Below, one piece after another: positions 12,219 to 56,058 of a stretch of DNA of 64,000 nucleotides. Source of the DNA: an uncultured Planctomycetia bacterium (GTDB taxonomy: Bacteria; Omnitrophota; Gorgyraeia; Tantalellales; Tantalellaceae); contig CAZNEE010000001.1 of NCBI GenBank assembly GCA_964572255.1, positions 66,223 to 130,222 of the forward strand, written 5' to 3'. Within the stretch, counting starts at the first letter, position 1, and each line of letters opens with the position of its first letter. Under the pieces are notes generated by a model that was not told the DNA's origin, searched no databases, and saw only the letters and a program-made list of their open reading frames with translations. Position numbers and translations under genes: made by a program.

Positions 12219-15200
12219 ATGTTTAATATCAATAATAATATAATAACTGAAAATAATACCAGACCTCTTATTATGGACTGGCAAAGCTCCAGAAATAAGA
12301 AGTGGATCAGGACCATAGCGTTAATAGTCATATTCTGCTTTACACATCAATCAATAGGATGGACCGAAAACGGAACCCCCGTATGGACAAGATCAGTTAA
12401 CCTTCCGTCAAATATCGCCGCAAAAGAAGAAGTATTCACCTCAAAAGGAATTAACGGCGACAAGACTATTATCAATATACAGGATGCCCACGCTTCCTTA
12501 AGCGCCCAGGAATCTATTGTATCCGTACTGGATTCATTAGTGTCCAATTACGATCTGAAACTCATAGCTGTTGAAGGATCCGCGGGGCGCATCGACACGT
12601 CACTTTTAAGGACTTTTCCGGATAAAGAAATAAGAGAAAGGTCCGCATACCACCTTATGAAAAAAGGAAAGATGTCGGCTGGAGAATTTTTCTCGATAAC
12701 TTCTGATAAGGAAGTTGCACTTTATGGCGTTGAAGAGAAAGATCTTTATAGGAAAAATGTCGATCAATTTCGCGGCATCTATGAAACGAATCAGGTTATC
12801 CAGAAGGATATACTGAATCTTATCAGCGTTTTAGATGTTTTAAAAGACAACATTTATTCGCAAGAATTAAAAGAGCTTGAGAATAATTCCGTTTTACATG
12901 AGAAGGGAAGCATAACCCTGAAGGAGAGATGGTCTTTTCTCGGCAAGCTGGCCCGTAGATCGGGAGTAAGTCACAAGGAGAAGAAAAACATATCAAAACT
13001 TGTTCAATGTCTTGAGCTGGAGGAAGAGATAGATTTTGAAAAGGCCAATAGCGAAAGATCCGCTCTTATAGATATCTTAAGTAAAGAATTGTCCAAGGAA
13101 GCGCTCGAAGAATTCGTTCTCAAGTCTCTTTCGTATAAGGAAGGCGGGATAACTCAGGGCGAATATCATTTATATCTCCGGAACTTGATGAAAGAGGCAG
13201 GGATCCCTTCCGTGACATATAAAGATCTGAACAAGTTTACAGACTATATTTTTCTCTATGAATCGATAGATATTATCAGTATTTTTGAAGAGATAAAAAC
13301 CTTTGAAAATGAGATAAAAGACAAGTTATTCAAAAACCGCGACCAGAGGGATCTGGACGCATTTTCAAGATACATGGAAACGATCAGGGACCTTTTCGAG
13401 ATAAGACTCGTTAACAGTGATTTCGGGTATATTGTTCAAAACAAAGATAAGTTTACCGCTTCAAATCTTTCAGAATTCATAAGAAATTCTTCCTCAAAGT
13501 ACGGTGTCAGGGTAAAGTGCGATTTTGATCTGGCCAGGATATTCTCCGGCATACCTAAAGCTCTTGAATTTTACAGAACTGTAGAGGAGAGGAACTCCGC
13601 GATACTCGCGAATACCATCAAGGAAATGGACGAAAAAGGACAGAGTATAGCAGCCCTTATCACCGGAGGTTATCATACCAGGGGCTTGAAAGAACTTTTA
13701 AAGAGAGAAGAGACTTCTTATATCGTGATACTTCCTAAATTTGATGATTCGGAAGAGACAAAACGCCCTTACATAGCGATCCTTACCAATAAAAAGGAAC
13801 CCTATCAGGAGCTTTTGGATTCCGGGAGATATTATCTTGCCACAAGCGCTTATTGCGAAGGGATAATAGATCTTTTCAAGAGTTCAGACTCTTTAGAGGG
13901 CGATATCCGGGAAAAATACTTTGAACTGGTGGATAATTACGGGGAAATATTCATTCATAATGTCGTTATGTGGGTTACGGGAGAGTCGGATCCTGATAAG
14001 GCGGCCGGGGTTTTCAGGAGGAAATTCAGGAGCAATCCCGAAAGGATACACAAGGAATGCGCGGATCTTATTGACAGCTGGTCGGGGAGTTACAAAAGTT
14101 TTTACGATGGATGCGAGGACAAGGAACTGTTGATCTCCCCTGAAGAGACTAAAAGGTTCCTGGAGTTTTTGGTCGAAGAGAAGCTCGGAGCTACACGTGA
14201 AAGCAAAGAAGAGCCGGTATTACTGCAGGGAGAGGAAAAAGATCTGCAGGATGAGTCTTATGTTGTCAGAAGCGTTATAGAGAGGATCACTAGTCTTGGC
14301 GGCGATATAAGTGATCTTGACAGGGCTTGCAGGATCTTAGGGGTGACCCCCACACCAGGCATACGGGAAGAGGTTTTAGGGCAGTTAGGAAAGATGGAAG
14401 GTGCAGAAGATGCTGAGGTGTCTCCTAAGGAAGAGATATCTGAACCCGAAGAAAAAACTTTGATTGCAGAAGAGGCCGGAACAGTCGAGGAAGATATAAG
14501 GAAAACTGAACCATCCAAAGAAAAGGGTTATGAGGAGCATGCTTTCACGGTCAGGTCGGCTGAGAAGGCGATCATAGTCAGCATTTTATTGTCTTTATTG
14601 AGCTTTGCCGGTGCGGTCAGTTTATTGATATTTAACTATACTTCTCTTTGTTATGTTGTTTTCTGCGGCCTTCTGTCGTTAGCAGGCGTTTATTTTATTT
14701 TTGCCGCTATAAGATATTTTATCATCAAAGAGGATGTTGAGGAAAGATTAACGAGGCGCCTTGTAACGCTTGGCCTTAGCGAGGAAGAGGCCAGCAAAGT
14801 CGTCAAACATATCGCTATAACACATTCCTCGATAGATTACTATGATCATGTGGGGCCGCAATACGGAAAGTTAAAGGAAGAACAGATCCTCCCCAGTAAA
14901 AAGATAAGGGATGAATTTTTGCCTAAGGATAAGGAAGAGAGAAATAAATACATTGCAATATTTAAAGAAGCGGCACTGATTTCGTTCAAGAATATGCACC
15001 CGGACAGTGTTAAAAATTATAACAGAGTTCTTTTAATCAAGCATGAGTCTTTCAGTCATATCAGAGGCTTATTAGCTATCACGCCTATCAGCCTGCATAA
15101 TGCCGCAATATTCGGAAATGCCCTGACATTTTTATCATTTATCGGAATCTGGATCTATCTTTTCGTAAAGGATAATATCAGCATGCCGCTGGCCGGCGGT

Positions 15201-18200
15201 GTTATTATCGCGGTCTTGACCTTGGACATTTTCACGCAGCTGCTGATTTTTATAAAAACTTTCATAGGCCTGCAAAGTAAATTTGTAGAAGCCAATACGG
15301 GATTGAAGGTGTTTTCCGTATCAACGATCCTATTTCTGATCTCATTTCTGGTATTGATCTCCATCAATCCCGCGCTTTTCTCATGGGGCGTTCTTTTGTG
15401 GGCGGTGATAACCGATCTTCTTTTGGCCGGGTTTTTGGCGTTATATCTGACTAAGAGCGAAGAATGGCACGCAGTAGTTATACCCGTTTTGACATTACTG
15501 ATCGGGGCGGGGTGCATATATCACTTTAAAATAAAAGAGGCCTTTCTCAGCACATCCGAACTTGCGGCAAAAGCTGCTTTCACAAGGGAGCCAGACGTGA
15601 AGGAAGAAACGGTATTCCAGATATTGGCGCACAAGGATAGGGAAGAAGTGATCCCGGAGATGGTAAAGAACCTTAACAGCAATAACAGAAAACTCGACAA
15701 TTTTTCCGTGCAAATGCTTGATGTATTAAAATGGGAACCCGAAAGCCTGAGGGAAGAGGTCGAATATCATGTTGCCAGAAGGGATGAAAAGAGATTCCAG
15801 CCGCTTAAGGATGGGATGATCGGTCTTCTTATAGATATCGTTAAAAGAGAGGACGCCGACAGCGGAGCGCGTTTATTCAGCGCCATGCTGTTGGCAAGAG
15901 AATGTGACAAGAGGGTCATAGAACCCGTTCTTGATATGTGGCATAAGATAGGGATCATCTCTTCTTCCGGGTTAAAGGAGGAATATTCTCTTGAAGCTGA
16001 TCTTAAGATGCTTATTGAGAACCATGGGAGTATAATTTATCCCCATCTCAAAAGATTCATTGTTGATGAAGAATGGAAGAAGCGTGATCCCGAGAAAAGC
16101 GTAATAGATTCCAATTGGCTGAGAAGACAGGTTATTGCAAGAGTTCTTGCGGAGATAAACGATCCCGGAACGGTTGATCTCCTCGCCATCATCCTTGAGG
16201 ATAATATCGATGAGAACCGGAACATTGCGGTAGAGACTTTGATCAGAATAGGAAAGCCCGCCATTTCCGCCCTTAAAAATATTCTGGAAAGTTCAAAATT
16301 TTCAAAAGCCCGCGAATCTGCGGCAATGATCTTGAAAACAATAGGAGGGGAAGAAGCCAAGGCCATTTTACTCCAGGCAAGATCGGATGGATCACCCAGG
16401 GTGAGGAAGGCTGTCGCCGATGCTTTAAATGCTTTAGGATGGGCGCCCGGCGAAGAGCAGGAAAAGATCGACCATTTTATTGACAATGAGTATTGGGATA
16501 AGATAGCCGAGATAGGCGCTCCGGCGATATACCTGCTCGAGAGGAGACTGGATTCCGATGACATCCAGTATCGCCGCAGGATAATTTACGCGCTCGGGAA
16601 TATAAAAGATCCGCGCGCGGCTGAGATCATTCTGCCGCTATTGTATGATGATAAATCGGATATCAGGATATCGGCAGCGGATGCTTTGGGGGCATCAGGC
16701 GATAAACGCGCAGTTGAGCCTTTGATGGAACTATTGGGGCATAGCTATTCGCCCGTACGCGGATCCGCGGCCAGAGCTCTTGGAAAAATACGGGACATTC
16801 GCGCAATAAAAACTCTTATAAAATCTTTGGAGACTGAGGATAAATCGGATGCAAAAATAGAAATGATCTCAGCCTTAAAAAAATTCAAGGATAAAAGTGC
16901 GAAGGATATACTTATCAAAGTATTGTATGATGATGAGGAAGGCGTGAAAGAATCCGCCAAGAAAGCTTTAAGAGCGATCTTGGATATGGAAGGGATGCTG
17001 GATGAATTGGATCAGGCATACGAAGGAAATGACAGAGAAAAGATCTCTACACTTGAGAAACTGCTTACAGAAGTTGATAAACCCGCCCTCATCCAATGGA
17101 AACAGGACCGCATGAAAAAACAGGCGCCCACTTTCAAGAAATACCTCACAATAGGCGGTATAGCTACGCTCGCGCTGGCCGTTCTTAGTGTAATTTTCCT
17201 CGTGGTAAGAAAGCTCTTTAAAGTGAAAAAAGTTTCCGGGGAAAAAGATGACTCCACGCATGCATTTACCGCCTTAAGCGGTTTTATTGGCTCGGGCATA
17301 ACGGCACTCTTGTCCGGCGGAACATTCATGGGCGCTGTTTTTGCGTTCGGCGCGGGAAGCATGGCGCTGAATATTATCGGATCCTTTGCGGTAATTGTCG
17401 GTTTTTATTTAGGTATTGCCGCTATGAGATATTTTTTCCTGGGGAGGGCTACTTATACCGCCATGCGCGATGAAAAGCTGCCCTTCAAAAGATCTCTTAC
17501 CGAACCCATAGCCAGATCTGACGAAACCCAACACAAAGCATTTGATCACCTGAAAGATAAATATAAGGAACTTATCAAGAAACACGAATGGCATGAAAAT
17601 CATTTTATAGGCATGCTGGGGATACTATTATTTCCGAGCATAACTGTTAGCGAAACCGCCTGGACCTGGGACAGACGGATCAACATTGTTAGATTAAAAT
17701 GGGTAAGTATTATTTTAAGTTATATTTCTCTTGCAGCGATCGGTATTTACGCAATACCCATAGCGGACTTGGTCGTATTGCCCGGCGCCGCAGCCGTTAT
17801 TTCCGCGGTTCTTGCTGTTAATCTTTTCATGCAGCTTGTTATTATACTGAAATCTTATGTTGAATATGGTCTTTTTGAACCACCGGTTCTGGTGTTTCCT
17901 GCCTTAGCTGCCGCAAGTATGCTGATCTTGAATTTAGTAAATCCACTTTTTCTTTTTCCGGCTACATTTTGGGCAATTTTCACTGCGAGCATTGGAGCCA
18001 CGGCGTTTGTTAGCGATAGTTTACGTGACCGGTTTACAATCGCATTTGCAGTTTTATTATTTGTATTATCTTTTGCGGTTTTACCTTATAAGGTCTGGTG
18101 CGCGGGCAAAGAAACGGATGCTGTTATTAAGGTAGGCATAGAGCATTTTAGCAGAAAGAAAAAATTAGATCCATTCGCCTACCAGATATCGGCCAACAGG

Positions 18201-21200
18201 AAAAGGGAAGAGATCATACCTAAAATAGTCGAGTTACTTCATAATGATAAATATTCCAGGGAATTCGCTGTCCGCATGCTTGAAGAACTTAAGTGGGAAC
18301 CGCAGAATATAGAAGAAAAAGTTCTGTACCTGGCGACAAAAGAAAGGTTTGATGAAATAAAACTTCTGGGCCGGCCTGCTATAGACATTATCGTCAAGGG
18401 TTTAACGGACAAATCCTCAGTTAGTCGGAAGTTTTCCGCTGATATCCTTAAAAAAATAGAGTGGGAGCCGAAAACGCAGAAAGAAAAACTGTCTTATCAC
18501 ATTGCCGATAAAAATTGGGATGTTTTGGCCGAAAGGGGCGATATCGCCATAGAACAGCTGAGAACATGCCTGGAAGATGAGGATAGAGAGGTGCGCAAGG
18601 GGGCGGCAAAAGTTTTGGATAAGTTAAGCTGGCAGGCTGAAACGCAGGCAGAAAAAATAACTTATTCTATAGCTAAAGAGGATCAGGAAATGCTTATCGA
18701 AATAGGTGCTCCGGCAGCCGATGATCTTATCAAGATGCTCAAAGACAAAGATCCGAATGCACGTATATTTGCGATCAAAGTTTTGGAGCAGATAGATGAT
18801 GAAAGAGTTGAAAGGCTTCTTACCGTCAGGGCATTGGAAGATGAAGACGAGAATGTCAGTACAGCCGCAGGCGATACATTAAAAGATATGATCGATGTTG
18901 CAGAACTATTACAGAGATTGGATTGGGCTTACGAAAAAGATAATAGGGCGAAAATAAAAGAAATAGAAGACGTGCTTTTAAGGACCGATAATAAAGAGGC
19001 TCTCGTCAAGTGGAAGCAGGACCGCATGAAAAAACAGGCGCTCGCTTTCAAGAAATACCTTATCGTAGGCGGTATAGCTACGCTTGCCTTGGTCGTCCTG
19101 AGCGGGCTATTTCTTGCGGTTAAGAAGCTATTTAAGGTGAAAAGATCCGGCAGTACTCCCAAACTTCCGCTTATCATTTTATTTGTACTGCTTTCACTCT
19201 TTTCGGCCAGAGGGATAAAGGCCCAGGAAGTTCCGGCCCCAACACCCCTCCCAACGCCTCAAGAAGAGATCAAAACAGAAAAGATCCCCGATGTCGACGC
19301 TTTAATAGAAAAGTTAAAAGATAATGATATGGATATTCGGGCATCTGCCATAAAGAAGTTGGGAGAGATGAAGGAGGTAAAAGCGGTAGATCCTCTTATA
19401 GAGATCGTAAAGAAAAAATGCTCAAGAAAAATATATATTGAAAAAGGCTTGGTAGAGTCATTAACAGTGGAAATGCCTGACGGCACTAAAATAATATGCC
19501 TGCCTGATGATGTTGCTTGCCGGGTACAGGCGGCTAAAGCTCTGGGAAATATCTGCGATAAAAGAGCGGTAGATGCCCTTATCGAAGCTTTAAAGGATGA
19601 ACTTTCAGGCGAACCGAGAAGTTCCATAATAACGGATTTGACCTTAGCCGAAGCCCATATAGGTGAGGCTTTGGCAAAAATAGGGGAACCGGCGATCGAA
19701 CCCTTGAAGAAAGCTTTATCCGAAGCTGACCACCATACCAAACGGGAGAGAATAGCCAATATTTTGCGCAAGATCGAAAGCGCTAAAGCAGCCGAGGCTT
19801 TATTAGAGAGCTATAAAAAAGAAAAAGAAGACCCCAAATGGGTGTATGTAAACGTTTACAACGGTTTAATAGATATAGGCAGACCCGCGGTAGAAGTCCT
19901 TATAAAAGCATCGAAAGATGAGGATATTTGGATTCGCCGCCTTGCGTTAGACGTATTAGGAGAGATAGAAATAGGAACCAAAGAAGCTAGCGAAGAGGCG
20001 GTAGATGCGCTTATAAATGCTTTAAAAAGCGGAAAGAATCATAGTTTGGATATGGGGCCGGCGTTTATCAACATGAGCAAGAAGAACACTTATGTGGTAG
20101 ATGCTCTCATAGAAGCGCTGAAAGATGAAGATTATTCCGTGCGTATCGATGCGGCATCAGCTCTCAGCAGGATATGCGACCAGAAAGCTGCAAGCCCTCT
20201 TTTAGATGCTTTTCTGAAAGAAAAGGATGAAATAGCGCGTCAGGCGATTGCGTCTGCTCTTACTGAAATAAAAGACCCGAACGCAATAGAAGCATTAAAG
20301 AAGGCGCTGGAAGATGAAAGCAGCCGCGTTCGTGCGGTAGCGGCGTGGGCTCTTGAAAGAGTTGATGTAATGACCCCTGAACTTAAGATAATAAGGTATG
20401 CCAAGGATCTGGAGGATGAAAGCGTTGAAGTCCGCGTAAAAGCGGCAAAAGCTCTCAGCATGATGCATGGTCAAAAATCGAAAACAGCTCTTATAAAAGC
20501 CCTTTGCGACGAGGAAGAAGATGTCCGCAAGCTTGCAGAAAAAGCGGCTGAAATGCTGGAGACAAAGCTTATTCTTGAAGAATTGGAAAAGGCCTATGAC
20601 CGGGATGAAGATAGAGAGAAGATCATTGCGATAGAGAAATTTATCATCAAGACCAATAAGCCTGCCCTAAACGAATGGAAACGAAACCGGATGAAACAAC
20701 GGACTTCGCCCTTTAAAAAATACCTTGTCTGGATCGGGATCGGCACTTTGATCCTGGTATTTCTTGGCGGGATAGCCATCGCCGTTAAAAAGGTCTTTAA
20801 GTTCAAAAGATCAGGTAAAACACCAAAACTGCCGCTTATCATTTTATTCGTATTGCTTTCGGTGTTTTCAGCTAAAGGGGTAAGGGCCCAGGAAGCCCCC
20901 GTTCCGGCGCCTCAGGAGCAGGAGGAGGTAGAAAATGAGAAAGAGGTGGATCGGCTGATAAAAGACCTTGGAGATAAAGATGAATCTATCCGTAATAGAG
21001 CCGCTAAAGCGCTTGGAGAGATAGGGGGCCCTAAGGCGATAGAGGCCCTTATAAAAAATATGGCAGTAACGCATGACTTGCATGGCATTAAAATAGTAGA
21101 TCCCAGAGCCTGCATGGATGCTCTTGTTAAAATAGGCGAACCGGCGGTGAAACCGCTTATAAAAAGCCTTGAAGATAAGGATGGGACCATACGAGCATGT

Positions 21201-24200
21201 GCCGCAGCCGCGCTTGATAGATTGGGCGTTTTGACGCTGGAACACAAGATCACCAAATGGTCTGCCGACCTAAAAGATATTGATAAGAAAATTACTGTTT
21301 CAGAGATAAGAGAGTTTGATGAGATAAAAGATCCGGATGTAAGGGTAGATCTCCTCATAGCGGCTTTAATACGCGGAGATGGTCGCGAACAGGCGGAACA
21401 GTCGCTGAAAGAGATCAATGTAATGACGCCTGATATTTTGATAAAAAAGTTAAGCCATTACCTGGACAGCGGAAATGATATTTTCCGCAGAGGCGCCGCT
21501 AAAGAACTTATCAAGATAGAGGATCCGAAGGTTATTGACATTCTTGTTAAAATGATGGGCTCTAAAGATGAAGTCGTTCACGATCTAGCTGTCGAAAAGC
21601 TGATAGAGATAGAATGGCAGCCTAAGGGCCCGGAAGAAGAGGTCCTTTATATCGATTCTTTAGCTGAAGAATTAAAAGGTTATTGTACTCCTGAAGAACA
21701 GCAGCTTATTTTCACGGCTTTGCTTAAAATAGGCAGTAAAAAGGCGGTAAAGGCGATCATAGAAGCTTGCGGGAATGAAAAACAAGAAAGGTCTTTATAT
21801 GCAATTAGAGTGCTGGTAGCGATAGGCCCTCCCGCAGTCGATCCTCTTATAGAAGCTTTAGAATCGAAGAGCGAACGTATCCGTAAGATGGCTGCCAAGG
21901 CATTGGAGATCATAGGCGATAAACGCGCTGCGCCGGGTCTGATCAAAATGGCAAAGAAGGCGAAGGATGAGGAAGCTTATTGGGAAAGTATAGATGCGAT
22001 CAAAGCTTTGGGCGGGATCGGGGATGCAAGCGCTGTGGATTTTCTCACTTCTGTTGTGGAAAACAAGAAATTAGGACAAATTATGCGCACTGAAGCTGCC
22101 GAGGCATTGGGTAAGATCGGTGATCCTAAGGCTGTAGATGCTTTATTGAAGGCGAAGAACAGTAAGCATTATTCCCTAAGAATTGCAGCGATACTGGCTT
22201 TAGGCGAGATAGGAGATCCGAGGCCGGTAGAGGCGCTGATAAAGGAAGTCGGGAACACAAGCATGCAAAACCATTCATACGAAGCGATAGTAGCCCTTGG
22301 AAATATAGGCGACCCAAGGGCCGTAGAGCCTCTTTCAAAAATTTTAGACCCGGAAGTTTATCGTAGTTCTTATCAAAAAAAGGCTGCGTTCATATCCTTA
22401 ATGCAGATCGGCCGGCCCGCGGCTGAAATACTTGTTCCTGACTGGAAAAAGAGGTACGAATCTTTTCTGTATAACTTGCCCAGAGAGTTCAAAGAAGAAT
22501 TGGAGATGAAAAGGATAAAAGAGCTGGCGCTGAAGTTTTTAACGGGATCATTAAAAAATGAAAAGACAATAATGCGCAAAAACGCGGCAGAAGGTTTGGA
22601 TGATCTGGAATGGAAGCCCGCGACACAGGAAGAAAAAATAATATATTGCATCGCAAAAGAGGACTGGAAAGCTCTATCAGAAACCGGAGAAGCAGCCATC
22701 CCGCTTTTGGAGGAAGCTTTGAGGTATGAAGATCCGAGCATAAGCTCATCCATCGCGGAGATCCTGAAAAAGATGGAGTGGAAGCCGGAAGTACAGGAAG
22801 AGGAAATATATTATTTTATCGCGAAAACCGATGCTGATGCGCTTGCAAAAATAGGCGAACCCGCCGTTGAGGCGCTTGCAGAGCTTTTAGAGAGCGATTA
22901 TGTGAGTGCGCAGAATTTTGCGAAAAGGCTTTTAAAGCAGTTCGGTACAAAAGTATTATTAGAGCAATTAGAACAGGCTTACGCTGAAGGGGACAGGGAA
23001 AAAATCAACATGCTTGAGAGAAGGATCAATTTATATGATGAGGAAGCTCTTATTAAATGGAAGCGGGAGCGATTGGAGAAAGGCGCTCCTCCCTTCTGGA
23101 AATACCTTGCGGTAGCCGCAGGCATGTTCGTTTTTGTTTTATTAGGCGGAATGATCCTTGCCGTCGGAAAGGTTCTAAAGGCCAAAAAAGCCGAAAAAGA
23201 TAATTCTACCCACGCTTTCAGGGCTTTAAGCGGGTTTATTGCAGGCGGCGTAACTGCTTTGTTGGCCGGGGGAGTATTTAGAGCAGCGATCCTTACCTTT
23301 GGCATAGGAGGCCTGACATTTAATATTATCGGGGGGCTTGTTTTATCTATAGGAATTTATTCAGCCATAGCTGCAGTAAGGTATTTTTTCTTAAGTAAAG
23401 CTACTTATAATGCCATGCGCAAAGAAGGACTTTCTTTTAAAGACGCTCTTATTAAGCCCATAGCACAGTCTAACAGTAAGACTGGCGCTCTTATCGTTCA
23501 TAAAAAAGCGCATGATCTTCTCCCTGACAAATATAAAAAAGCAATTATTATGCATGAATCCTATAAAAGCCATTTTATAGGCATGCTCGCGATGCCGTTT
23601 TCACTCATTCATGATCTGTTAAACCAGCGTGTTGTAAGTGCGATCACCATGATCAATTTATATGCGATGGTGATTTATGAATTTATCGTATGGAACACAG
23701 TATCACAGCTCGGTTTGACGATCATTACCGCTGCATTAGCTATGAATATAGGGCTGCAAATTCTTGTCGGTATAAAGATGCTTATCGATAGAAATAAGAG
23801 CGGCCCTGATTTTGTGTCGTTGGTCTGGATAGCGATAAATTGCGGATTTATTCTTTTAAATTGCATAAATCCGGCGCTTTTATCTCCGGCAGTATTATTA
23901 ATATTCGTTATGGTCGCCGCACTTTCAGTTACTGCGGACATAGAGAAAAAGGCGGATCGAATAGATGCGCCGGTAGCTTTTTTTATTATGATGATCGGCT
24001 TTTTTGTAGTTTTTCTACTTGGTTACGGCAAGTTGAATATGGCCTTCATGGATACCCCGGAGATGCTGGACCATGCTGTTCATATTACTGATGATCAGAG
24101 CTCTCAAAATAAGAATTTTTACACTGTAAGAAGATGGGTGAGAAAATACTGGGCTGCTGAGATTCTTGCTAATAGAAAAGAAGAGGAAGTTGTTCCGGAA

Positions 24201-27200
24201 TTATTAAAGGAGATGAAAGGTGCGGATCAGCATGCAAGAGATATAATCTTTAAGGTCATTAAGAAAATAGACTGGGAACCCGGAACTGTTGAGGAAAAAA
24301 TCTCATATTATACCGCTAAGGGAGATATTGAAAAACTGGTCTCTTTAAGAGAACCGGCCATAGGGGCTTTGTTGGATATATTGGAGGATGGAACCATAGA
24401 GAATAAAGCCGCAGCCGAAGAGGCGCTTGGCAGGATCAAAGTTCCTAAAACGGTGAAGGTAAAAGCTGAAAAGGATGAGCCCACTGAAAAGGATCCCGAA
24501 CTTGCCGAAACTACCATCTCTGGAATTTGTCCTCCGGCTAAATCATTCTCGACGTTAATACAGGACTTAAAAAGTTATAAAGCAGGGACACGTTTGGATG
24601 CGGCTAAAGCTTTGGGGGATTTGGGGAATAGAGATGCCGTGCCCTATCTTATTGAGATGTTGCACTGGAAGATACCATATGAAAATGATCATTTAACGCC
24701 GGATTGGTCTCCGACTAAAGCTGACGTAAGAAAGAAAGCTTTAGAGGTCCGCTCAGCTGTAGTGGAAGCTTTGGGGAAACTCAAAGATCCGAGGGCTGTT
24801 GATCATATTTTAAGTATAGCGACAGAACGCAGTTCATCGCACGGCTATATCCTGACAGAAACGGCAGTTATTGCCCTGGGGAAAATAGGCTCGCCGAAAG
24901 CCGCAAAAAGTATTATAGAGACTTTGGCTGATTGGAGTTATAAAGATATATCAATCGAGGCTTTAGTCAATATAGGCAAGCCGGCAGTTCCTGATCTATT
25001 GGAAGGAATTAAGACTAAGGGCGAGCGCAGCAGCTATACTCGTGCTCGTGATTACAGTAAAAATATCCGTGCATTTTGCGCTGAAGCTTTAGGAAGAATA
25101 CAGGATGAAAGGGCCTTAAAGCCTCTTATAAAGGCTTTAAGGGATGGAGACAGACTTGTTCGAGAACATGCCGCTATTGGATTGGGATATTTAAAAGATA
25201 GCAAAGCTTTGCAGCCCCTCCTCAATGCCTTAAAAGACAAGGAAAGTGATGTCCGTTCCGCTGCGGCGATAGCTTTGGGAAGAATAGAGGATGAGCGCGC
25301 TTTCAATGCCTTGATAAAAGCTTATAAAACGGAGAATAAAGGATACGGCGAGGAAGAATCTCTTGTCAGGGCGATAGGACATTTTAATAATTTTCTGGCA
25401 ATAAATATTTTAGCGAGTCATGCGGAAGAAGGGACTTCTGATCTCAATAAGTTCATTTCAGAAAGATTAGTCGAAATAGGCGAGCCGGCTGTTAAGTTCT
25501 TGATAAGACGTATAAATTATGACGAAGCCAGAAATATATTAATCAAGATCGGTGATCCCGCGATAAAGCCCATTCTGGAAATCTTTAGAAATGGCGATCG
25601 CCAACAGCGCATTAGTGCATATACGGCTCTTAAGAGGATGGATAATCTTCCCAAAGGGCCGTTCATCGAAAAGCTCGGACATAAGGATCTTCTAATGCGT
25701 GAACAATCCATTGAGATATTGACCAAATTAGGATGGGAACCCGGCACTCAGGAAGAAAAGATCTATTATTATATTGCCAATAAGGATTATGACGCAGTGT
25801 CAAAAATAGGCGAACCCGCAGTGGATGTCCTTATTGAAGCTTTGGAATATGAAGATGTAGGGTCGAGAGAGAACGCTGCCAGGATTTTAGGAGAACTCGG
25901 CAGTAAAAGGGCCGTTTTACCTCTTGCCAATATTTTGGAAGATAAAGATCTTAGAAATGATGTTTCCGCAGCCTTGAGAAAGATCGTAAAGACATCTGAA
26001 GCTTTAGAGGAGTTGGAGGAAGCTTATAAAGTGGGAGACAGGGAAAGAATAGATGCTCTTGAGAAGATCCTGACGGAGATCGATAAACCTGCTCTAGTTA
26101 CATGGAAGCAGGAGAGGATGAAGAAACAAGTCCCAGCTTTTAAGAAATACCTCACCCTGGGCGGTATCAGCTTGCTTGTCCTGACTCTCTTAGGCGGAGT
26201 TATTGCTGCGATAAGAAAAGTCTCAAAAGTCAAAAAAACCAAAGCCGAAAAAGATGACTCCGGTCACGCTTTTAGGGCTTTAAGCGGAGTGGCAGCTTCG
26301 GGTATAGCTCTGCTGTTTACAGGAGGGGCTTTTGTAGGTGTTTTTTATGCATGGAGCGCCGGGGGATTGGTGCTTAATATCGCAGGAGGGGCTGCTTTAT
26401 CTTTCGGCATTTACCTGGCCGTAGTTTCAGCGAGGTATTTTTTCTTGGGTAGAGCCACTTATATTGCCATGCGCGATGAAAAACTATCCTTTAAAGACGC
26501 TCTCACTATACCCATAGCAACAGCTAACATATCCCGCCATCGCCACAAAGCATATGAAGGTCTTTCATATAAAAATAAAAAATTGATCGACCTGCACGAG
26601 TCTTACAAAAGCCATTTTATAGGCATGCTCGCTTTAATGTTTTCGTTCATTCCGGGCCTGGTAAGCTCCAAGGCAATTAACAGGCTTACAATGATATCCA
26701 TTCTTTCTATGACGGTTTATAAATTGTGCGTTTGGAATGCGGCTTCAGCGTTTGCTTCCGGCATAATAACGAATCTTTTGGTGGTGCATCTGGCTTGGCA
26801 GGTTTTAATTTTCATGAGAGTTATATTTGAGAAGTTTTTCGGGACAAGTTGGGGGTACTTGCACGAAGGCTCCGAGAGCTTTATATCGCTTTCCATGATA
26901 CTTGTAAACGGCGCTTTTCTTTATTTAGGTCTCCTGAACCCCGCGCTTTTATCCCCTGTTGTTCTATTTTTCGCTCTTGCCGTTCTTATGTATGCAAATG
27001 ACGATCATCAGTACAGAAGCAGCGTTATAGAATTTTCCTTTTTGCCGATCGTTCTTTTCTTGGTACTTGGCGTATCTTTATTTACCAAGGTAAAAATGGC
27101 TTCCATGGATACCGTTGAAGTGATGAAAACAGCGGTGCAAGTCAAAGACGTCAGGAATCCGCGCAATATGCGTTACATGATGAGAAGATACTGGGCCGCA

Positions 27201-30200
27201 GAGGTTTTAGCGAACAGAAAAAAGGAAGAAGTGATACCGCAGCTTGTCAGTGAACTGAACAATGAAAATATGGATATAAGAGAGATCGCCGCTGAAGCAC
27301 TTTATAAATTGAACTGGGAGCCCAAAAACGCCGAAGAGGAATTTCTGTATCATGTTGCCGGGAGAGATATTGAAAAATTATCCTCTTTAGGCAAGGCCGC
27401 CACCAAGCCCCTGTTGGACATTTTAAAAGAGGGGAATAGGGATGAAAAGATCGCCGCCGCAAAAGCTATCGGCAGAATTAAAGACCCCGAGACGGGCCCG
27501 GGACTCCTGGATGCTTTAAAAACCGCATCAAGCAAATATTACGGAGATCCGAAACTGGAAATAGTTTTGATCGAGGCTATAGGAAATATAAGATTCGGTA
27601 AAGCCGTACCGCTATTATTAAATGAGCTTAAAGAGGGAAATACTGCGGCAAGGAAGGCTCTTGTTAAAATAGGCGAACCCGCTGTAGAGCCTTTGGTGAA
27701 GATGCTCGAACATGAGAAAACAGTGTTTAAGCGGGAAAAGTATGAGGGAATATTAATAGAAATAGGCAAGCCGTCAGCAGCTGTTGAAAGACTTCTGGAA
27801 GGTGGATCTTTCCATAACCGTGAGTCAGCCGCGAAGATACTTTTCAAGATAGGGCTTTACACTAAAGAGCTCAGGATAAAACGCTGCAAAGCAGACCTTA
27901 AGGATGAAAACTGCAGCGATATCGCCAAGGCTAAAGCGGAGGAAGCGCTTCGTAAGCTTGGTGAAGTTCCGGAAGAAGGAAAGACATATAAAGATATATG
28001 GGATTCGGAAGAAGCTCGAAAAGAAAAGATCGGTAAGTTGATCAAAGATTTTGAAAGCAACGATGAGAAAAAGCAGTCCGCTGCTGTAAGAGAGCTGGTA
28101 AGAATAGGAAAACCCGCCGTTCTTGACCTGATCGAAGCTTTGCAGGAAAATTTTGCTCCTGTGGAACAGTCCGCGGCTAAAGCTCTTGCGGAAATAAAAG
28201 ACCCCAGAGCTATCCAGCCTTTATTTGATAAGATGGAGAATGACGATTTTGACGAGACGAGAATGGTTGCGGCCGAAGCGCTCAAACAGATGGGCTGGGA
28301 ACCTAAGACCGATCATGAAAAAGCCGTTTATTATATCGCGATCCAGGCCTGGGATAAATTAGTTGAAATAGGCCCGGCCGCTGTTCCAAAAATTATTCCG
28401 CGGCTTAAGGATGATTCACCGCGCGTAAGGATCAATATTATTAACACGTTAGGAAGGATCAAAGATCCGAGCGTCATTACGCGTCTTATCCAGTCATTAA
28501 GGGATGAACCTATAAATGAAAATGTTCAGTGGAATAAGGAGCATTACGCAGAGGTGTTGGGAGCGCTAAAAAGAGCATTAAAAGCTTTTGGTGAAGAGAT
28601 AGTTCCTCATCTTAAGAGGGAACTTAAAGAAGGCAATGGGAAAAGCAAAAAATGGTCTATAGATATCCTTGAAGATGCGGGAGCCTTAAGTAAAACCGAT
28701 CTTTTAGAGGCTTTAAAGGATGAACATTATTCCGTTCGGGAGTTTGCGGTACTGGCTTTAGGTCGGAGAAATGACCCCTCAGTTATCGATAGACTGATAG
28801 AGGTTTTTAATGCCGAAAAATTTGAGGTCAAGAAATTTTCAAAAAGCGGAGGTTTTGCTGTCAGGGAAGCGGTTGTCGTTGCTTTAAGCGATATCGGCGG
28901 GGAAAAGGCGGCCGGGTTTCTTATAAAGGCTTTAAAGGATAAAGACTGGGATGTACGCGAAAAGGCCGCAACGGGACTTGGAAAGCTGGAAGAAAAGAGA
29001 GCGGTCAGGCCTCTTATAACAGCTTTAAAGGATAGTAATGTTGATGTAAGGAAACAGGCAGCATGGGCATTGGGTCAAATAGGCGGTAAAGAGGCGATCA
29101 ATGCGCTTCTTGGTGCTTTAGAGGATGATGCTAAAGATGTTCGCGAGGCGGCAAAAGACGCTTTAAGAAAAATAGTGATCGCGGGAGAGAAGCTCAAAGA
29201 GCTCGAAGAAGCTTATAAGAAAGAAGACAGAGAAAAAATAACGGAGATCGAGGACATATTAAGTATCGTCAATAAAGACGCGCTTGAAGAGTGGAAACAA
29301 GATCGGATGAAAAAGGAATTTCCGAAGTTCGGTAAGTATTTAACTGTCGGCGGTATTATAGTTTTTCTTTTTGCCCTGATAAGCGCATTCGGGATCGCTG
29401 TATGGAAGACGATCAAAAAGCGCAAGAACCTTCTTCTAAGCATACTTCTTGCCGTTACATGCGCCGGAGCTTTTTATTATTTGAACGAAGCTTTTCAATT
29501 TGCTGATGAGGGCGGGATCTTTTCTTTGGCCGGTGCTCCTTTCTTTCCTGTCGGCGGGATCATAACGGAAGGCGGAATTGATCCGATCCTTGCTAAAGAA
29601 ATGACAAAGTTCCATAAGCTGATGGTGAAGTCCGCTAAGAAAAAGATAATAGGGCAGGACCTTCGCGCTCCTTACGAGTTTACCAGAAGGGACAGAAGAA
29701 GATGGGCGAATTTCATTAATAAATACAGAAGTGAGATGGGGATAACGAAGGCCTTCATTAAAGGGGCAAGGTATGTTTACGGCGACAGGATGCGCACTCC
29801 CGACGATGAAGAAAAATTCATAAAGATCTTTAAGTCTTTGGATCTTAAGGCTATTGCCGATGCTGACCCGGTGGATGTTGATCTTGAAGACCTTCTTAAG
29901 ACGGGGAATATAGAATATTTTACCGAACTTATAGGAAGCAACCCTGCGGCTTTATATTCTTTCTGCGTGAGGTCAGACGATGATGTCGTTAAAGAAATAA
30001 CGGATATGATTTCAAGCGAGGATATAGATGCCCAGAAAAAAGGCATCTTAAGCTGGGCGTTCCTGCCGGACGATGTTGCGGAATACCTTGTTGCTTATGG
30101 GTTACATTTTGATGACCACAGGCTGATCGAAGCCGCGGTCCGGGTAGCGGGAAGAAAAAAAATCTCTAATTTCAACTCTCAAATACTGAAGTTCTCCAGG

Positions 30201-55346: not shown

Positions 55347-55422
55347 GCCCGCATAGCTCAGCTGGCAGAGCAACTGACTCTTAATCAGTGGGTCCAAGGT
55401 TCGAATCCTTGTGCGGGTACCA
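55347..55422 (+). tRNA. tRNA-Lys (anticodon CTT), with encoded CCA.
   Basis: Cloverleaf folded by hand: acceptor gcccgca/tgcgggt (G1-U72 wobble), D-stem gctc/gagc, anticodon stem actga/tcagt with loop ctCTTaa, T-stem caagg/ccttg with loop ttcgaat, discriminator A. Confidence 0.85.
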
Positions 55423-55458
55423 AAGTTAGCCTAAAACACAGTTTATTAATGATTGCGA

Positions 55459-55534
55459 GCGGGTGTAGCTCAGTTGGTAGAGCATCACGTTGCCAACGTG
55501 ATTGTCGTCGGTTCGAGCCCGATCACCCGCTCCA
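55459..55534 (+). tRNA. tRNA-Gly (anticodon GCC), with encoded CCA.
   Basis: Acceptor gcgggtg/cacccgc, D-stem gctc/gagc, anticodon stem tcacg/cgtga with loop ttGCCaa, T-loop ttcgagc, discriminator U. Confidence 0.85.
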
Positions 55535-55584
55535 TTTTCATCTATCCCTGGAATTTTGATCAAACGATACAAGGAGCGAGAGGC

Positions 55585-56058
55585 ATGAAAATCAGTGAGA
55601 TGTTAAGCGGCAATGCTATTAACGTTGATTTAAAAGCTACCGATAAAGAAGGTATTATCGAAGAACTTGTCGATCTTTTGGTGTCTTCCGGCAGCATAAA
55701 AAAAGCTCAGAAAGAAGAAATATTATCCAAGCTCAAAGAAAGAGAAGTACTTGGGTCCACCGGTATCGGTAAAGGAGTGGGGATTCCTCACGCAAAGAGT
55801 AAAAGCGTCAAAAAAATGATCGCGGCTTTCGGCGTATCTAAAAAAGGCGTTGATTTTAAATCGCTGGACGGCTCTCCGGCAAATATATTTTTCCTTTTGA
55901 TCGCCCCCGGAGAGACTCCCGGACCTCATCTTAAGGCATTGGCGAAGATATCGCGTTTACTTGATGATAAATTTATCCGTGAAAGGTTGCGTTCAGCTGC
56001 TTCAACTAAAGAGGCCATTAAGATCATGATAGATGAAGAGCAAAAAGCCGCCCAATAA
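55585..56058 (+). CDS. ptsN: PTS EIIA (fructose/nitrogen-type, PtsN-like) regulatory protein, 158 aa. The track ORF 55453-56058 starts inside tRNA-Gly; the real start is the ATG at 55585, preceded by AAGGAG.
   Basis: NAINVDLKATDKEGIIEELV...GIGKGVGIPHAKS (phosphorylatable His loop)...IFFLLIAP. Confidence 0.75.
   Translation: MKISEMLSGNAINVDLKATDKEGIIEELVDLLVSSGSIKKAQKEEILSKLKEREVLGSTGIGKGVGIPHAKSKSVKKMIAAFGVSKKGVDFKSLDGSPANIFFLLIAPGETPGPHLKALAKISRLLDDKFIRERLRSAASTKEAIKIMIDEEQKAAQ

What the first reader, a model, noticed from the sequence alone, without database searches (positions are those of the whole stretch)
14500..29500. Six-fold iterated module (multi-TM domain or internal signal-peptide-like segment, then HEAT array, then LEELEEAY...WKQDRMKKQ junction, then TM helix), with near-identical nucleotide junctions
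The N-terminal ~6,000 aa are built from a reiterated cassette. Every HEAT array:
- begins with ANRK(E/R)EE(V/I)IP(E/Q)(L/I)V;
- ends with a junction that runs about 50 aa, L(E/D)ELE(E/Q)AY..(D/N)RE(K/R)I..(L/I)E..L.....KPAL..WKQ(D/E)RMKKQ.P.FKKYL..GGI;
- is followed by a TM helix.
Two of the modules are followed not by a multi-TM domain but by a segment that looks exactly like a cleavable signal peptide plus proline-rich linker: KLPLIILFVLLS(L/V)FSA(R/K)G(I/V)(K/R)AQE(V/A)P...P. This sits in the middle of a 10-kaa polypeptide. Junction copies 1 and 2 (17098-17190 vs 19011-19103) and the two signal-peptide-like copies (19160-19240 vs 20822-20905) are about 85-90% identical at the DNA level. That points to recent intragenic duplication or gene conversion, and it makes these spots assembly risks. 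Internal signal-peptide-like segments raise the possibility of post-translational processing into smaller membrane-anchored HEAT subunits.
Basis: seen in the sequence. Interest (0 to 1): 0.7.

Follow-up and report, generated by a model that had tools for sequence, protein, structure and literature searches.

The report
Membrane-stitched HEAT arrays, giant Omnitrophota protein
The first 5,700 residues of a 10,132-residue Omnitrophota protein hold six HEAT-repeat arrays sewn through the cell membrane by repeated connectors, two of which look like cleavable signal peptides and keep that look in relatives, giving testable cut sites for a class of giant proteins whose processing is an open question.

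Summary
The repeat architecture is real. ORF 12219-42617 (10,132 aa) has six HEAT arrays. Each ends in a conserved ~50-aa helical junction plus a TM helix. After that helix the chain continues through one of three connectors:
- a ~320-aa 7-TM domain (four paralogous copies);
- a short signal-peptide-like helix (two copies);
- a 2-3-helix connector leading into six midasin-like AAA+ modules, an acidic linker and a vWA/MIDAS domain.

Two reader details are overstated. The ANRK..EEVIP start occurs in 4 of 6 arrays. Only junctions 1 and 2 reach 85% DNA identity over 93 nt. The longest exact repeat in the gene is 26 nt, so recent conversion and repeat-driven mis-assembly are not supported.

The signal-peptide reading gains support. 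In Omnitrophota homologues this element recurs with a basic n-region, a short h-region and small-x-A|Q. In one orthologue two positions carry lipobox-like G|C instead. No other hydrophobic segment scanned has the motif. Charge bias, TM parity and a fifth core-domain copy beside the vWA domain all place the HEAT arrays outside the membrane and the motor inside. Cleavage itself is untested.

The 7-TM domain's core (2 TM + H..HE....H) matches no Pfam family or solved fold. Only 66 hits appear among 1.84 billion cluster representatives.

The parts
12219..42617 (+). Giant ORF, 10,132 aa, single uninterrupted frame
12219..14537 (+). N-terminal domain (aa 1-773). It has no Pfam or PDB match and is 40.7% identical to the N-terminus of Omnitrophota protein P0068. 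A short hydrophobic stretch at aa 32-43 has unresolved status.
14538..15608 (+). Multi-TM domain copy 1 (aa 774-1130). Order: H-A-F, TM a, TM b, long HE....H loop, then five further TM helices.
15627..16994 (+). HEAT array 1 (starts AHKDREEVIPEMV)
16995..17234 (+). Junction 1 plus stop-transfer TM helix (aa 1593-1672)
17235..18191 (+). Multi-TM domain copy 2 (aa 1673-1991)
18192..18905 (+). HEAT array 2 (starts ANRKREEIIPKIV)
18906..19145 (+). Junction 2 plus TM helix (aa 2230-2309)
19146..19223 (+). Signal-peptide-like element 1: basic loop, h-region LPLIILFVLLSLF, c-region SARGIKA. Predicted SPase I site is A2335|Q2336.
19224..20570 (+). Pro-rich linker plus HEAT array 3
20571..20810 (+). 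Junction 3 plus TM helix (aa 2785-2864)
20811..20888 (+). Signal-peptide-like element 2: h-region LPLIILFVLLSVF, c-region SAKGVRA. Predicted site is A2890|Q2891.
20889..22955 (+). Pro-rich linker plus HEAT array 4
22956..23189 (+). Junction 4 plus TM helix (aa 3580-3657)
23190..24167 (+). Multi-TM domain copy 3 (aa 3658-3983). Its core (aa 3645-3830) was modelled at pLDDT 89.3.
24168..26000 (+). HEAT array 5 (starts ANRKEEEVVPELL)
26001..26240 (+). Junction 5 plus TM helix (aa 4595-4674)
26241..27209 (+). Multi-TM domain copy 4 (aa 4675-4997)
27210..29192 (+). HEAT array 6 (starts ANRKKEEVIPQLV)
29193..29426 (+). Junction 6 plus TM helix (aa 5659-5736)
29427..29573 (+). Terminal connector: a second TM helix (aa 5738-5756, no A-x-A|Q) and a weak G/P-rich third hydrophobic segment (GGIFSLAGAPFFPVGGII). 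The third segment is conserved in P0001 and P0023.
29574..38588 (+). Midasin-like motor: six AAA_5 modules with midasin AAA lids. All six have intact Walker A and Walker B motifs.
33672..34166 (+). Four-TM insert between AAA2 and AAA3 (aa 7152-7316). Also present in P0023 (aligned 46% through this insert) and apparently in P0018.
40539..40958 (+). vWA/MIDAS domain (D-E-S-G-S motif at about aa 9446), preceded by an E/K/G-rich acidic linker (aa ~9150-9340)
41106..41510 (+). Fifth, divergent copy of the 2-TM + HE..H core domain (aa 9630-9764, here MHEKVH), directly after the vWA domain

Best explanation
Region 14500-29500 encodes the membrane-threaded display part of a giant Omnitrophota protein. 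The chain passes in and out of the cytoplasmic membrane in a fixed grammar.

1. A HEAT solenoid sits outside the membrane.
2. A conserved helical junction runs straight into a stop-transfer TM helix that brings the chain back in.
3. A short, very basic cytoplasmic segment follows.
4. A re-export connector sends the next HEAT array out again.

The re-export connector comes in two interchangeable forms with the same parity:
- a 7-TM domain, whose cytoplasmic face carries a new 2-TM + H..HE....H core domain;
- a minimal signal-peptide-like helix with basic n-region, 13-15-residue h-region and I/V-x-A|Q-E-x-P.

After the sixth array, a connector inferred to have three helices delivers the chain to the cytoplasm. 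There lie a midasin-like ring of six AAA+ modules, an acidic linker and a MIDAS/vWA domain. These are tethered to the membrane by a 4-TM insert and by a fifth copy of the core domain.

Shown:
- the module grammar and its six-fold iteration;
- the paralogy of the connectors;
- conservation of the signal-peptide-like class in homologues;
- the midasin-like C-terminal half.

Inferred with moderate confidence: HEAT arrays outside and motor inside.

Inferred with lower confidence (about 0.4): signal peptidase I cuts at A2335|Q2336 and A2890|Q2891. That would yield three products:
- an N-terminal 2,335-aa piece;
- a 555-aa hairpin-anchored HEAT3 unit;
- a 7,242-aa piece carrying HEAT4-6 and the motor.

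This is the logic of enveloped-virus polyproteins, which host signal peptidase cuts at internal signal sequences.
For: Architecture:
- Six junction HMM hits, four multi-TM domain copies and a fifth core copy.
- HEAT Pfam hits in all six arrays.

Interchangeable connectors:
- The orthologue fragments P0001 and P0002 (49.5% identical in HEAT6-AAA2) have 7 junctions, 2 multi-TM domains and 5 SP-type connectors. The window gene has 6, 4 and 2.

Signal-peptide class:
- Of 98 hydrophobic segments in 8 family proteins, 9 carry small-x-small-Q, and all 9 belong to this class. The chance rate is about 0.065 per window.
- By eye there are 12 A|Q-type examples across 7 proteins.
- P0001 has two lipobox-like variants, LLTSASG|C and LLAPVG|C.
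- In P0068 the element sits about 250 aa after the stop-transfer helix, behind a HEAT array on the inside. It is therefore an independent start-transfer unit and not just the second half of a hairpin.
- Its uncharged run is 15 residues here, against 22-23 for the junction TM helices.

Topology:
- Under 'HEAT outside', K+R counts are 68 inside against 41 outside. Of the 41, 27 are the basic junction tails. Every short outside loop has 0-1 K/R.
- The fifth core copy directly follows the vWA domain with no TM helix between it and the ATP-dependent AAA+ modules. That fixes the core's N-flank and HE-loop to the cytoplasm.
- In P0003 a core copy is followed, with no clear spanning helix between (only the c' segment), by DHDPS and NAD-epimerase domains.
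- The pLDDT-89 model shows the HFIGML segment as two short helices rather than a spanning helix. That gives 7 TM helices per domain, so junction TM + domain (8) and junction TM + SP helix (2) are both even.
- A third hydrophobic segment after junction 6 is conserved in three proteins and is followed by a K-rich stretch.

Literature:
- HEAT repeats in Omnitrophota giants are predicted exclusively extracellular. Cleavage points are explicitly unknown (10.1101/2023.11.21.568195).

Motor:
- phmmer against the PDB gives midasin at E = 7e-142.
Against: - No experimental or proteomic evidence for topology or cleavage exists for this protein.
- The junction's juxtamembrane tail (WKQDRMKKQ.P.FKKYL, +5 to +7) would lie outside, against the positive-inside rule. 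Over 24 family examples the junction TM helix has no charge bias of its own (mean net +3.6 on the N side, +4.0 on the C side).
- The third helix after junction 6 is weakly hydrophobic (15-residue Kyte-Doolittle maximum 1.3-1.6). If it does not span, the AAA+ ring would be placed outside, which is implausible.
- The N-terminal hydrophobic stretch (aa 32-43, preceded by RNKKWIR) looks like a signal anchor. If so, the N-domain would be outside, in conflict with the orientation of multi-TM domain 1.
- The two ordinary N-terminal signal peptides visible in the window end AMA|L and SWA|V, not A|Q. The +1 Gln is therefore family-specific rather than a genome-wide rule.
- SignalP and DeepTMHMM could not be run.
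- The second lipobox-like motif (A-P-V-G-C) is non-canonical.
Confidence: 0.6

Rival explanations
1. The SP-like segments are uncleaved second helices of TM hairpins. They act only as start-transfer sequences, and the whole 10,132-aa chain stays in one piece as a single polytopic protein with external HEAT arrays.
For: - They always lie downstream of a TM helix and a basic cytoplasmic segment, like ordinary hairpins in polytopic proteins.
- The multi-TM domain does the same topological job without any cleavage motif.
- The conserved motor, junctions and arrays stay in one ORF in all relatives seen.
Against: - An uncleaved helix needs neither small residues at -1 and -3 nor a +1 Gln. These are kept while the h-region sequence diverges.
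- A lipobox-like Cys at the homologous position in P0001 has no role in an uncleaved helix.
- The h-region is short for a spanning helix.
Confidence: 0.35
2. The HEAT arrays are cytoplasmic. The junction TM plus SP-like helix form hairpins whose short basic loop faces outward, and the signal-peptide resemblance is coincidental.
For: - HEAT repeats and AAA+ modules are classically cytoplasmic.
- With a strict 2-helix connector after junction 6, the arrays and the ATPase ring would be on the same side.
- The basic junction tail would then obey the positive-inside rule.
Against: - It requires translocating 15-residue loops with 6-7 K/R.
- It inverts the multi-TM domain against its loop charge bias (68 vs 41 overall; 68 vs 14 without the junction tails).
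- It puts the HE-loop of the fifth core copy on the opposite side from the adjoining vWA domain.
- It leaves the conserved A-x-A|Q and lipobox-like motifs unexplained.
- The published TMHMM survey places HEAT repeats of Omnitrophota giants outside.
Confidence: 0.12
3. The iterated junctions reflect recent intragenic duplication or gene conversion, or repeat-induced mis-assembly, so the copy number in the window is unreliable.
For: - Junctions 1 and 2 are 85% identical over 93 nt, with somewhat more identical codons than other pairs.
- A relative (P0018) has near-identical tandem modules.
- Short-read assemblies of near-identical strains break inside this gene.
- All named relatives are listed as partial.
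Against: - The longest exact repeat is 26 nt, and no tandem repeats are detected.
- Identity collapses within 30-60 nt of the patch.
- The codon test is not significant (p = 0.06).
- The paralogous domains are 25-40% identical.
- The ORF is intact over 30.4 kb.
- The contig breaks lie at nt 14634 and about 42512, not at the flagged junctions.
- A 74-kb Logan contig, 100% identical where it could be read, is long enough to span the gene.
Confidence: 0.05

Closest known systems
Giant membrane-anchored proteins of Candidatus Omnitrophota ('Archaeovorin'-type; West-Roberts et al. 2023 preprint, 10.1101/2023.11.21.568195; 2026 preprint 10.64898/2026.06.07.730766)
   Same: - Same phylum: all named relatives are Omnitrophota MAG proteins.
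- Many TM helices.
- HEAT_2 is the commonest domain and is predicted extracellular. AAA_5 is among the frequent domains.
- A neighbouring 1,832-aa gene carries a C39 peptidase domain.
- Repeat architecture shows at protein level while the nucleotide repeats have decayed.
   Different: - The protein is 10,132 aa, far below the 30-147 kaa giants.
- No SecA_DEAD, dockerin or enzyme-cluster domains were found.
- The following were not found in term searches of those two papers: the defined junction/stop-transfer/re-export grammar, the 2-TM + HE....H domain, the internal A-x-A|Q elements and the complete midasin-like C-terminal half.
- The 2026 preprint suppresses internal signal-peptide calls on later chunks as chunking artefacts.
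Midasin / Rea1 / Mdn1 (eukaryotic ribosome-biogenesis AAA+ mechanoenzyme)
   Same: - Six AAA_5 modules in one chain, with midasin-type AAA lids (PF17867, PF17865).
- An acidic linker and a C-terminal vWA domain with a DxSxS MIDAS motif.
- Best PDB matches are midasins at E = 1e-107 to 7e-142.
   Different: - Bacterial, membrane-tethered by a 4-TM insert and by flanking TM domains, and fused to ~5,700 aa of HEAT/TM modules.
- The modules alternate between two Walker A types (GETGxGKT and GPTGxAKT). This suggests triplication of a pair.
- The alignment to yeast midasin is not simply colinear, so one-to-one orthology of the six modules is not shown.
Polyproteins cut by signal peptidase at internal signal sequences. 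Examples: bunyavirus glycoprotein precursors (PMC7926653, abstract level); flavivirus/pestivirus structural regions and the Bradyrhizobium FbcH cytochrome b-c1 precursor (both from my own knowledge, not checked here).
   Same: The order is the same: ectodomain, stop-transfer TM anchor, short cytoplasmic loop, internal signal sequence with a small-x-small site, next ectodomain.
   Different: Cleavage is not demonstrated here. The units are repeated HEAT solenoids in a cellular, chromosomal gene of an uncultivated bacterium. Most connectors in this protein are uncleavable 7-TM domains.
BlaR1/MecR1-type (peptidase M56) sensor-transducers, including HEAT-repeat fusions
   Same: - Many bacterial HEAT-repeat proteins retrieved by HEAT array 3 carry PF05569 (BlaR1 peptidase M56). 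Some are named 'HEAT repeat protein/beta-lactamase regulating signal transducer with metallopeptidase domain'.
- The general logic of a TM bundle with a cytoplasm-facing His/Glu motif followed by an external domain resembles each multi-TM-domain + HEAT module.
   Different: - No Pfam, PDB-sequence or fold match links the core domain to M56 or any other peptidase.
- The motif is HE-x4-H, not HEXXH, in four of the five copies.

Membership tests
HEAT / PBS-lyase HEAT-like repeat arrays (PF13646, PF03130) | Significant matches to the curated repeat profiles above the gathering score | tested here: met
   HEAT_2 E = 1.7e-16 to 7e-67 and HEAT_PBS up to 8e-45 across the six arrays
Sec-type signal peptide (signal peptidase I substrate) | Basic n-region, 7-15-residue hydrophobic h-region, c-region with small or neutral residues at -3 and -1 | tested here: met
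   KRSGSTPK / LPLIILFVLLSLF / SARG-I-K-A|Q and KRSGKTPK / LPLIILFVLLSVF / SAKG-V-R-A|Q. Checked by hand-written rules only, not by SignalP.
Sec-type signal peptide (signal peptidase I substrate) | Located at the N-terminus of the precursor | tested here: not met
   The elements start at aa 2310 and 2865 of a continuous ORF. No Met or start codon is nearby.
Sec-type signal peptide (signal peptidase I substrate) | Actually cleaved by LepB-type peptidase | not testable with these tools
   Needs N-terminomics or reporter assays
Bacterial lipoprotein signal peptide (lipobox) | [LVI][ASTVI][GAS]C at the end of the h-region | tested here: not met
   Absent from the window's two elements. The orthologue P0001 has LLTSASG|C (fits the permissive pattern as I recall it) and LLAPVG|C (non-canonical) at homologous connector positions.
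Midasin / Rea1 | Six tandem AAA+ (AAA_5) modules with midasin-type lids in one polypeptide | tested here: met
   Six Walker B DE(I/F/L)N motifs and six P-loops. AAA_5 E = 1.7e-42 to 1.8e-54; AAA_lid_7 and AAA_lid_5 hits. Midasin is the best PDB match.
Midasin / Rea1 | D/E-rich region followed by a C-terminal MIDAS (vWA, DxSxS) domain | tested here: met
   E/K/G-rich stretch at aa ~9150-9340 and LDESGSM in a PF00092 vWA domain, E = 3.6e-19
Midasin / Rea1 | One-to-one correspondence of AAA1-6 with eukaryotic midasin (orthology) | tested here: inconclusive
   The 13 aligned stretches cross-match different modules and are not simply colinear
Omnitrophota 'Archaeovorin'-type giant proteins | Numerous TM helices with HEAT repeats in predicted external regions | tested here: met
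   42 hydropathy peaks. The topology model places HEAT arrays outside.
Omnitrophota 'Archaeovorin'-type giant proteins | Divergent SecA DEAD-like helicase domain (present in most); length above 30,000 aa | tested here: not met
   No SecA_DEAD in the Pfam scans of all 20 segments. Length is 10,132 aa.
Zincin-type metallopeptidase (HEXXH) | HEXXH motif within a recognisable peptidase fold or profile | tested here: not met
   - The core domain has invariant H..HE and near-invariant H, spaced HE-x4-H, in copies 1-4. Only the fifth copy reads HEKVH.

The most novel reading that the evidence does not exclude
This is a cellular polyprotein. A giant bacterial precursor is threaded through the membrane co-translationally. 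The cell's own signal peptidase I cuts it at conserved internal signal peptides, and signal peptidase II does so in some orthologues. The products are several membrane-anchored external HEAT subunits that stay associated with a cytoplasmic, membrane-tethered, midasin-like six-AAA+/MIDAS motor. The new 2-TM + H..HE....H domain would be a membrane-face metalloenzyme acting in the same assembly. This would give the first defined cleavage points for Omnitrophota giant proteins. It would also give a prokaryotic protein with the full midasin domain plan, an arrangement that one published view places early in eukaryotic evolution (PMC3495828).
Probability: 0.3. Interest if true: 0.8.

Novelty: new variant of a known kind. 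Interest (0 to 1): 0.6.

Why it matters
- Omnitrophota giant proteins are a recognised puzzle. The main preprint on them says that whether they act as one chain or are cut is an open question, and that missing cleavage points blocked analysis. This locus offers concrete, conserved candidate sites (A|Q after an internal signal-peptide-like helix, and G|C in an orthologue). These can be tested by N-terminomics or simple reporter fusions.
- It offers a simple, checkable grammar for how very long chains are sewn through a membrane.
- It defines a rare, unannotated membrane domain: 66 hits among 1.84 billion cluster representatives, with no Pfam family or solved-fold match.
- The same protein carries a complete midasin-like domain plan in a bacterium. 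That bears on where the six-AAA+ midasin/dynein architecture arose.

Tried and rejected
- A word-indexed homologue search with junction 5 + multi-TM domain 4 found nothing at E<=1e-3. The exhaustive HMMER profile search was needed instead.
- A homologue search with SP + HEAT3 + junction 3, meant to find stand-alone modules, was swamped by generic HEAT proteins.
- AlphaFold on the whole junction + 7-TM module with 4 sequences gave pLDDT 50.8 and was not used for fold search.
It was rebuilt as A3.
- The afdb50 fold library was unavailable.
- PDB sequence searches of the N-terminal domain and of the module profile gave nothing.
- Exact 25-mer scans for the shared junction 1/2 word found no contig in the metagenome or GTDB genome collections. 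Independent assemblies of the flagged junctions therefore could not be compared.
- Alignment A3 was too divergent for locus finding. A1 gave only 3 loci: two Omnitrophota and one labelled Planctomycetia.
- Flank charges of the junction TM helix do not fix its orientation.
- The idea that the SP-like elements mark internal translation starts was rejected: no Met or start codon is nearby and the frame is continuous.
- I suspected a Tiki/TraB-like N-terminal domain from the motifs VEGSAG and GGYHTRG. No tool result supports this, so it is left as an untested lead.

Full report
**What is there**

The window holds one uninterrupted ORF, 12219-42617 on the + strand, encoding 10,132 aa. The finding's interval, 14500-29500, is the part of it between the N-terminal domain and the ATPase region.

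The junction motif occurs six times. The W of WKQDRMKK lies at aa 1627, 2265, 2820, 3614, 4629 and 5692. An HMM built from three copies hits exactly six places, aa 1593-1672, 2230-2309, 2785-2864, 3580-3657, 4595-4674 and 5659-5736, with iE 1e-26 to 1e-45. Each junction runs into an uncharged helix of 22-23 residues.

Pfam finds HEAT_2 and HEAT_PBS in all six intervening arrays. It finds nothing in the N-terminal 780 aa or in any of the four multi-TM domains.

The four multi-TM domains (aa 767-1139, 1673-1994, 3657-3986, 4675-5000) are clear paralogues. They are 25-40% identical, with E from 1e-11 to 1e-69.

- The ANRK..EEVIP start is present in only the four arrays that follow a multi-TM domain.
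- The first junction coordinate is one base out. In register, junctions 1 and 2 are 85% identical over 93 nt. All other junction pairs are 47-69% identical, and identity falls to 20-50% within 30-60 nt on either side.
- The two signal-peptide-like copies are 82% identical over 60 nt.
- At residues conserved between junctions 1 and 2, 20 of 33 codons are identical. The pooled figure for the other pairs is 103 of 247 (Fisher p = 0.06).
- The longest exact repeat in the gene is 26 nt, and Tandem Repeats Finder finds nothing.

Recent conversion and repeat-driven mis-assembly are therefore not supported for this gene.

The gene does fragment short-read assemblies, but at other places. Two independent contigs (JGI 3300017963 and ENA ERZ27256783), 99.94-99.96% identical to the window, both end at nt 14634. 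Two others end about 100 nt inside the 3' end. A 74-kb Logan contig, identical where I could read it, is long enough to span the gene. I could not retrieve independent assemblies of the flagged junctions.

**Relatives**

A profile of the junction + multi-TM module, searched against 1.84 billion cluster representatives, found only 66 proteins at E<=1e-3. Of the nine relatives looked up by exact sequence, the five that carry a source name are all Candidatus Omnitrophota MAG proteins, nearly all listed as partial. A locus scan added two Omnitrophota genomes and one labelled Planctomycetia.

- P0001 is 49.5% identical and colinear over HEAT6-AAA2.
- P0023 and P0018 are 43-46% identical over the same part.
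- P0068 shares the N-terminal domain at 40.7%.
- The HEAT/TM string itself is only about 25% identical and is not colinear.

Module content differs between orthologues. P0001 and P0002 together show 7 junctions, 2 multi-TM domains and 5 short connectors. The window has 6, 4 and 2. P0018 has at least three near-identical [short connector-HEAT-junction-TM] units with a period of about 313 aa. The module string evolves by duplication and by swapping connector types, while the motor is conserved.

**The signal-peptide-like connector**

In the window both copies read as follows:
- a basic loop (KKLFKVKRSGSTPK);
- a 13-15-residue hydrophobic run (LPLIILFVLLS(L/V)F);
- SA(R/K)G(I/V)(K/R)A|QE(V/A)P;
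- a proline-rich linker.

The same class of element is found after the junction TM helix in six other family proteins, although the h-region sequences differ. Examples are QPTLA|QAPP, ASITQA|QVTP, QPTFA|QAPQ, PRTAMS|QEGPP, PRISRA|QEAP, GSPIMA|QDKE, NKIMA|QENAPP, APGFA|QNH and PAAVA|QAS.

In a scripted scan of 98 hydrophobic segments in eight proteins, 9 carried small-x-small-Q, and all 9 were of this class. The chance expectation is about 0.065 per window.

In P0001 two homologous connector positions end instead in LLTSASG|C and LLAPVG|C, which are lipobox-like.

In P0068 the element lies about 250 aa downstream of the stop-transfer helix, behind a HEAT array. It is therefore an autonomous start-transfer unit and not merely the second leg of a hairpin.

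A helix that is never cleaved needs neither -3/-1 small residues, nor a +1 Gln, nor a lipobox Cys. This is the main argument that these are functional signal peptides.

A +1 Gln after SPase I cleavage has a documented precedent in the Bacteroidetes Q-rule (PMC5837995). The two ordinary N-terminal signal peptides I could see in this window end AMA|L and SWA|V. The Gln is therefore a family feature rather than a demonstrated genome rule.

**Topology**

Several independent arguments agree.

1. Assume the HEAT arrays are outside. The loops of the multi-TM domains and hairpins then carry 68 K+R inside and 41 outside. Of the 41 outside charges, 27 belong to the basic junction tails. Every short outside loop has 0-1 K/R.
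2. A fifth, divergent copy of the core domain (aa 9630-9764) follows the vWA domain directly. No TM helix separates it from the AAA+ modules, which need cytoplasmic ATP. The core's N-flank and HE-loop are therefore cytoplasmic. In modules 2-4 that N-flank is the C-flank of the junction TM helix.
3. In another carrier, P0003, a core copy is followed by DHDPS and NAD-epimerase domains, with no clear spanning helix between them, only the c' segment.
4. A model of the core built on 40 sequences (pLDDT 89.3, pTM 0.73) shows the HFIGML segment as two short helices, not a spanning helix. That gives 7 TM helices per domain. Junction TM + domain makes 8 spans and junction TM + signal-like helix makes 2. 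Both are even, as interchangeable connectors require.
5. After junction 6 there is a second helix without the A|Q motif. It is followed by a weak, G/P-rich third hydrophobic segment that is conserved in P0001 and P0023, and then by a K-rich stretch. Three spans would put the motor inside.
6. The published TMHMM survey of Omnitrophota giants also places HEAT repeats exclusively outside.

Weak points remain:
- The junction tail is strongly basic yet would be outside.
- The junction helix has no charge bias of its own.
- The third helix is only moderately hydrophobic.
- The short hydrophobic stretch at aa 32-43 is unresolved.

**The multi-TM domain**

Its N-terminal ~150 aa is a distinct unit. 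It comprises H-x-F, two TM helices, R-Y-F, IAxSDGYRHxAF and HE-x-F-x-S-H-F-x-G-M..LP. This unit occurs one to four times in many large HEAT-containing proteins. I aligned 77 copies. H21, H135 and E136 are invariant, and H141, G144 and M145 are nearly so. The C-terminal five-helix part is confined to the closest relatives.

**The rest of the protein (outside the finding, but needed to read it)**

Residues ~5786-8790 hold six AAA_5 modules with midasin AAA lids. All six have intact Walker A and B motifs, of two alternating Walker A types. The best PDB matches are midasins, at E = 1e-107 to 7e-142. The aligned stretches are not simply colinear, so module-by-module orthology is open.

A 4-TM insert sits between AAA2 and AAA3. 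An E/K/G-rich acidic linker and a vWA domain with LDESGS follow.

One published view holds that the six-in-one AAA+ arrangement arose from MoxR early in eukaryotic evolution (PMC3495828). My literature searches found no description of a bacterial midasin-like protein. Those searches cover open-access text only.

**Mechanism proposed**

During translation, each signal-like helix or 7-TM domain starts export of the next HEAT solenoid, and each junction helix stops it. The result is six external HEAT arrays stitched to the membrane, coupled in cis to a cytoplasmic, membrane-tethered AAA+/MIDAS motor.

If SPase I cuts at A2335|Q2336 and A2890|Q2891, three products result: a 2,335-aa N-terminal piece, a 555-aa HEAT3 unit held by a C-terminal hairpin, and a 7,242-aa motor-bearing piece.

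I put the architecture and topology at about 0.6-0.7 and cleavage at about 0.4. What the arrays bind, and what the motor pulls on, is unknown.

**Novelty and score**

Giant, TM-rich, HEAT-bearing Omnitrophota proteins are known as a class. So this is a new variant of a known kind, not a new kind. Four things were absent from the papers I read:
- the explicit stop/start-transfer grammar;
- the conserved internal SPase-type sites, which one preprint filters out as chunking artefacts;
- the unannotated core domain;
- the full midasin-like plan in the same chain.

The candidate cleavage sites make an openly stated question directly testable. Interest: 0.6.

Noticed in passing
window 29574-41078 (aa ~5786-9620): The C-terminal half has the full midasin domain plan in a bacterium: six AAA_5 modules with midasin lids, an acidic linker and a vWA domain with DxSxS. 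The best PDB hits are midasins (E down to 7e-142). The alignment is not colinear, and the Walker A types alternate (GETGxGKT / GPTGxAKT), suggesting a triplicated pair.
   Followed up: partly
window 33672-34166 (aa 7152-7316): A four-TM insert splits the AAA+ array between modules 2 and 3. It is also present in P0023 (aligned 46% through it) and apparently in P0018, so the motor ring appears to be membrane-tethered.
   Followed up: partly
window 41106-41510 (aa 9630-9764): A fifth, divergent copy of the 2-TM + HE..H core domain sits directly after the vWA domain. Here it carries a classical HExxH (MHEKVH). The ~370-aa C-terminal tail after it has no Pfam match.
   Followed up: partly
window ~38970-38990 (aa ~8918-8924): A second HExxH motif (TMHETGHRD) lies in a 350-aa segment between AAA6 and the acidic linker. 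The segment has no Pfam match and could be a peptidase-like domain.
   Followed up: no
window 14634 and ~42512: Two independent short-read contigs (JGI 3300017963, ENA ERZ27256783) of a 99.95%-identical strain both end exactly at nt 14634, inside multi-TM domain 1. Two others end about 100 nt inside the gene's 3' end. No repeat explains this. Strain-level structural variation within the gene is a possible cause.
   Followed up: partly
window 128-10390 (3,420-aa ORF), around aa 1835-1870: The upstream large ORF has only an ABC1 kinase-like Pfam hit. It contains its own internal signal-peptide-like segment (RKMNLGIRAIPKLFLFIILCLLSRGQA|KADEFEDD). Its 3' end overlaps the next ORF (10356-12002) by 35 nt. 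In another assembly the homologous gene is called as 5,798 aa, with a faint Peptidase_M48 hit.
   Followed up: no
window 47428-52926: A 1,832-aa protein with an N-terminal signal peptide and a Peptidase_C39 domain. This is the domain that the Omnitrophota giant-gene preprint proposes as a processing protease. It lies 5 kb downstream of the giant gene.
   Followed up: no
window 12219-14537 (aa 1-773): The N-terminal domain has no Pfam or PDB match but is 40.7% identical to P0068. The motifs IAVEGSAG and ITGGYHTRGL reminded me of Tiki/TraB-type enzymes. This is from memory only and was not tested.
   Followed up: no
P0018 aa 380-835 (Omnitrophota MAG protein MFH1878822.1): There are at least three near-identical tandem [signal-like helix - HEAT - junction - TM] units with a period of about 313 aa. 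Recent module amplification therefore happens in this family, although not in the window's gene.
   Followed up: partly
window 55347-55534: tRNA-Lys(CTT) and tRNA-Gly(GCC) lie here. The mechanical ORF 55453-56058 begins by reading through tRNA-Gly, so the real PTS EIIA gene probably starts at the internal Met, at about nt 55585.
   Followed up: partly
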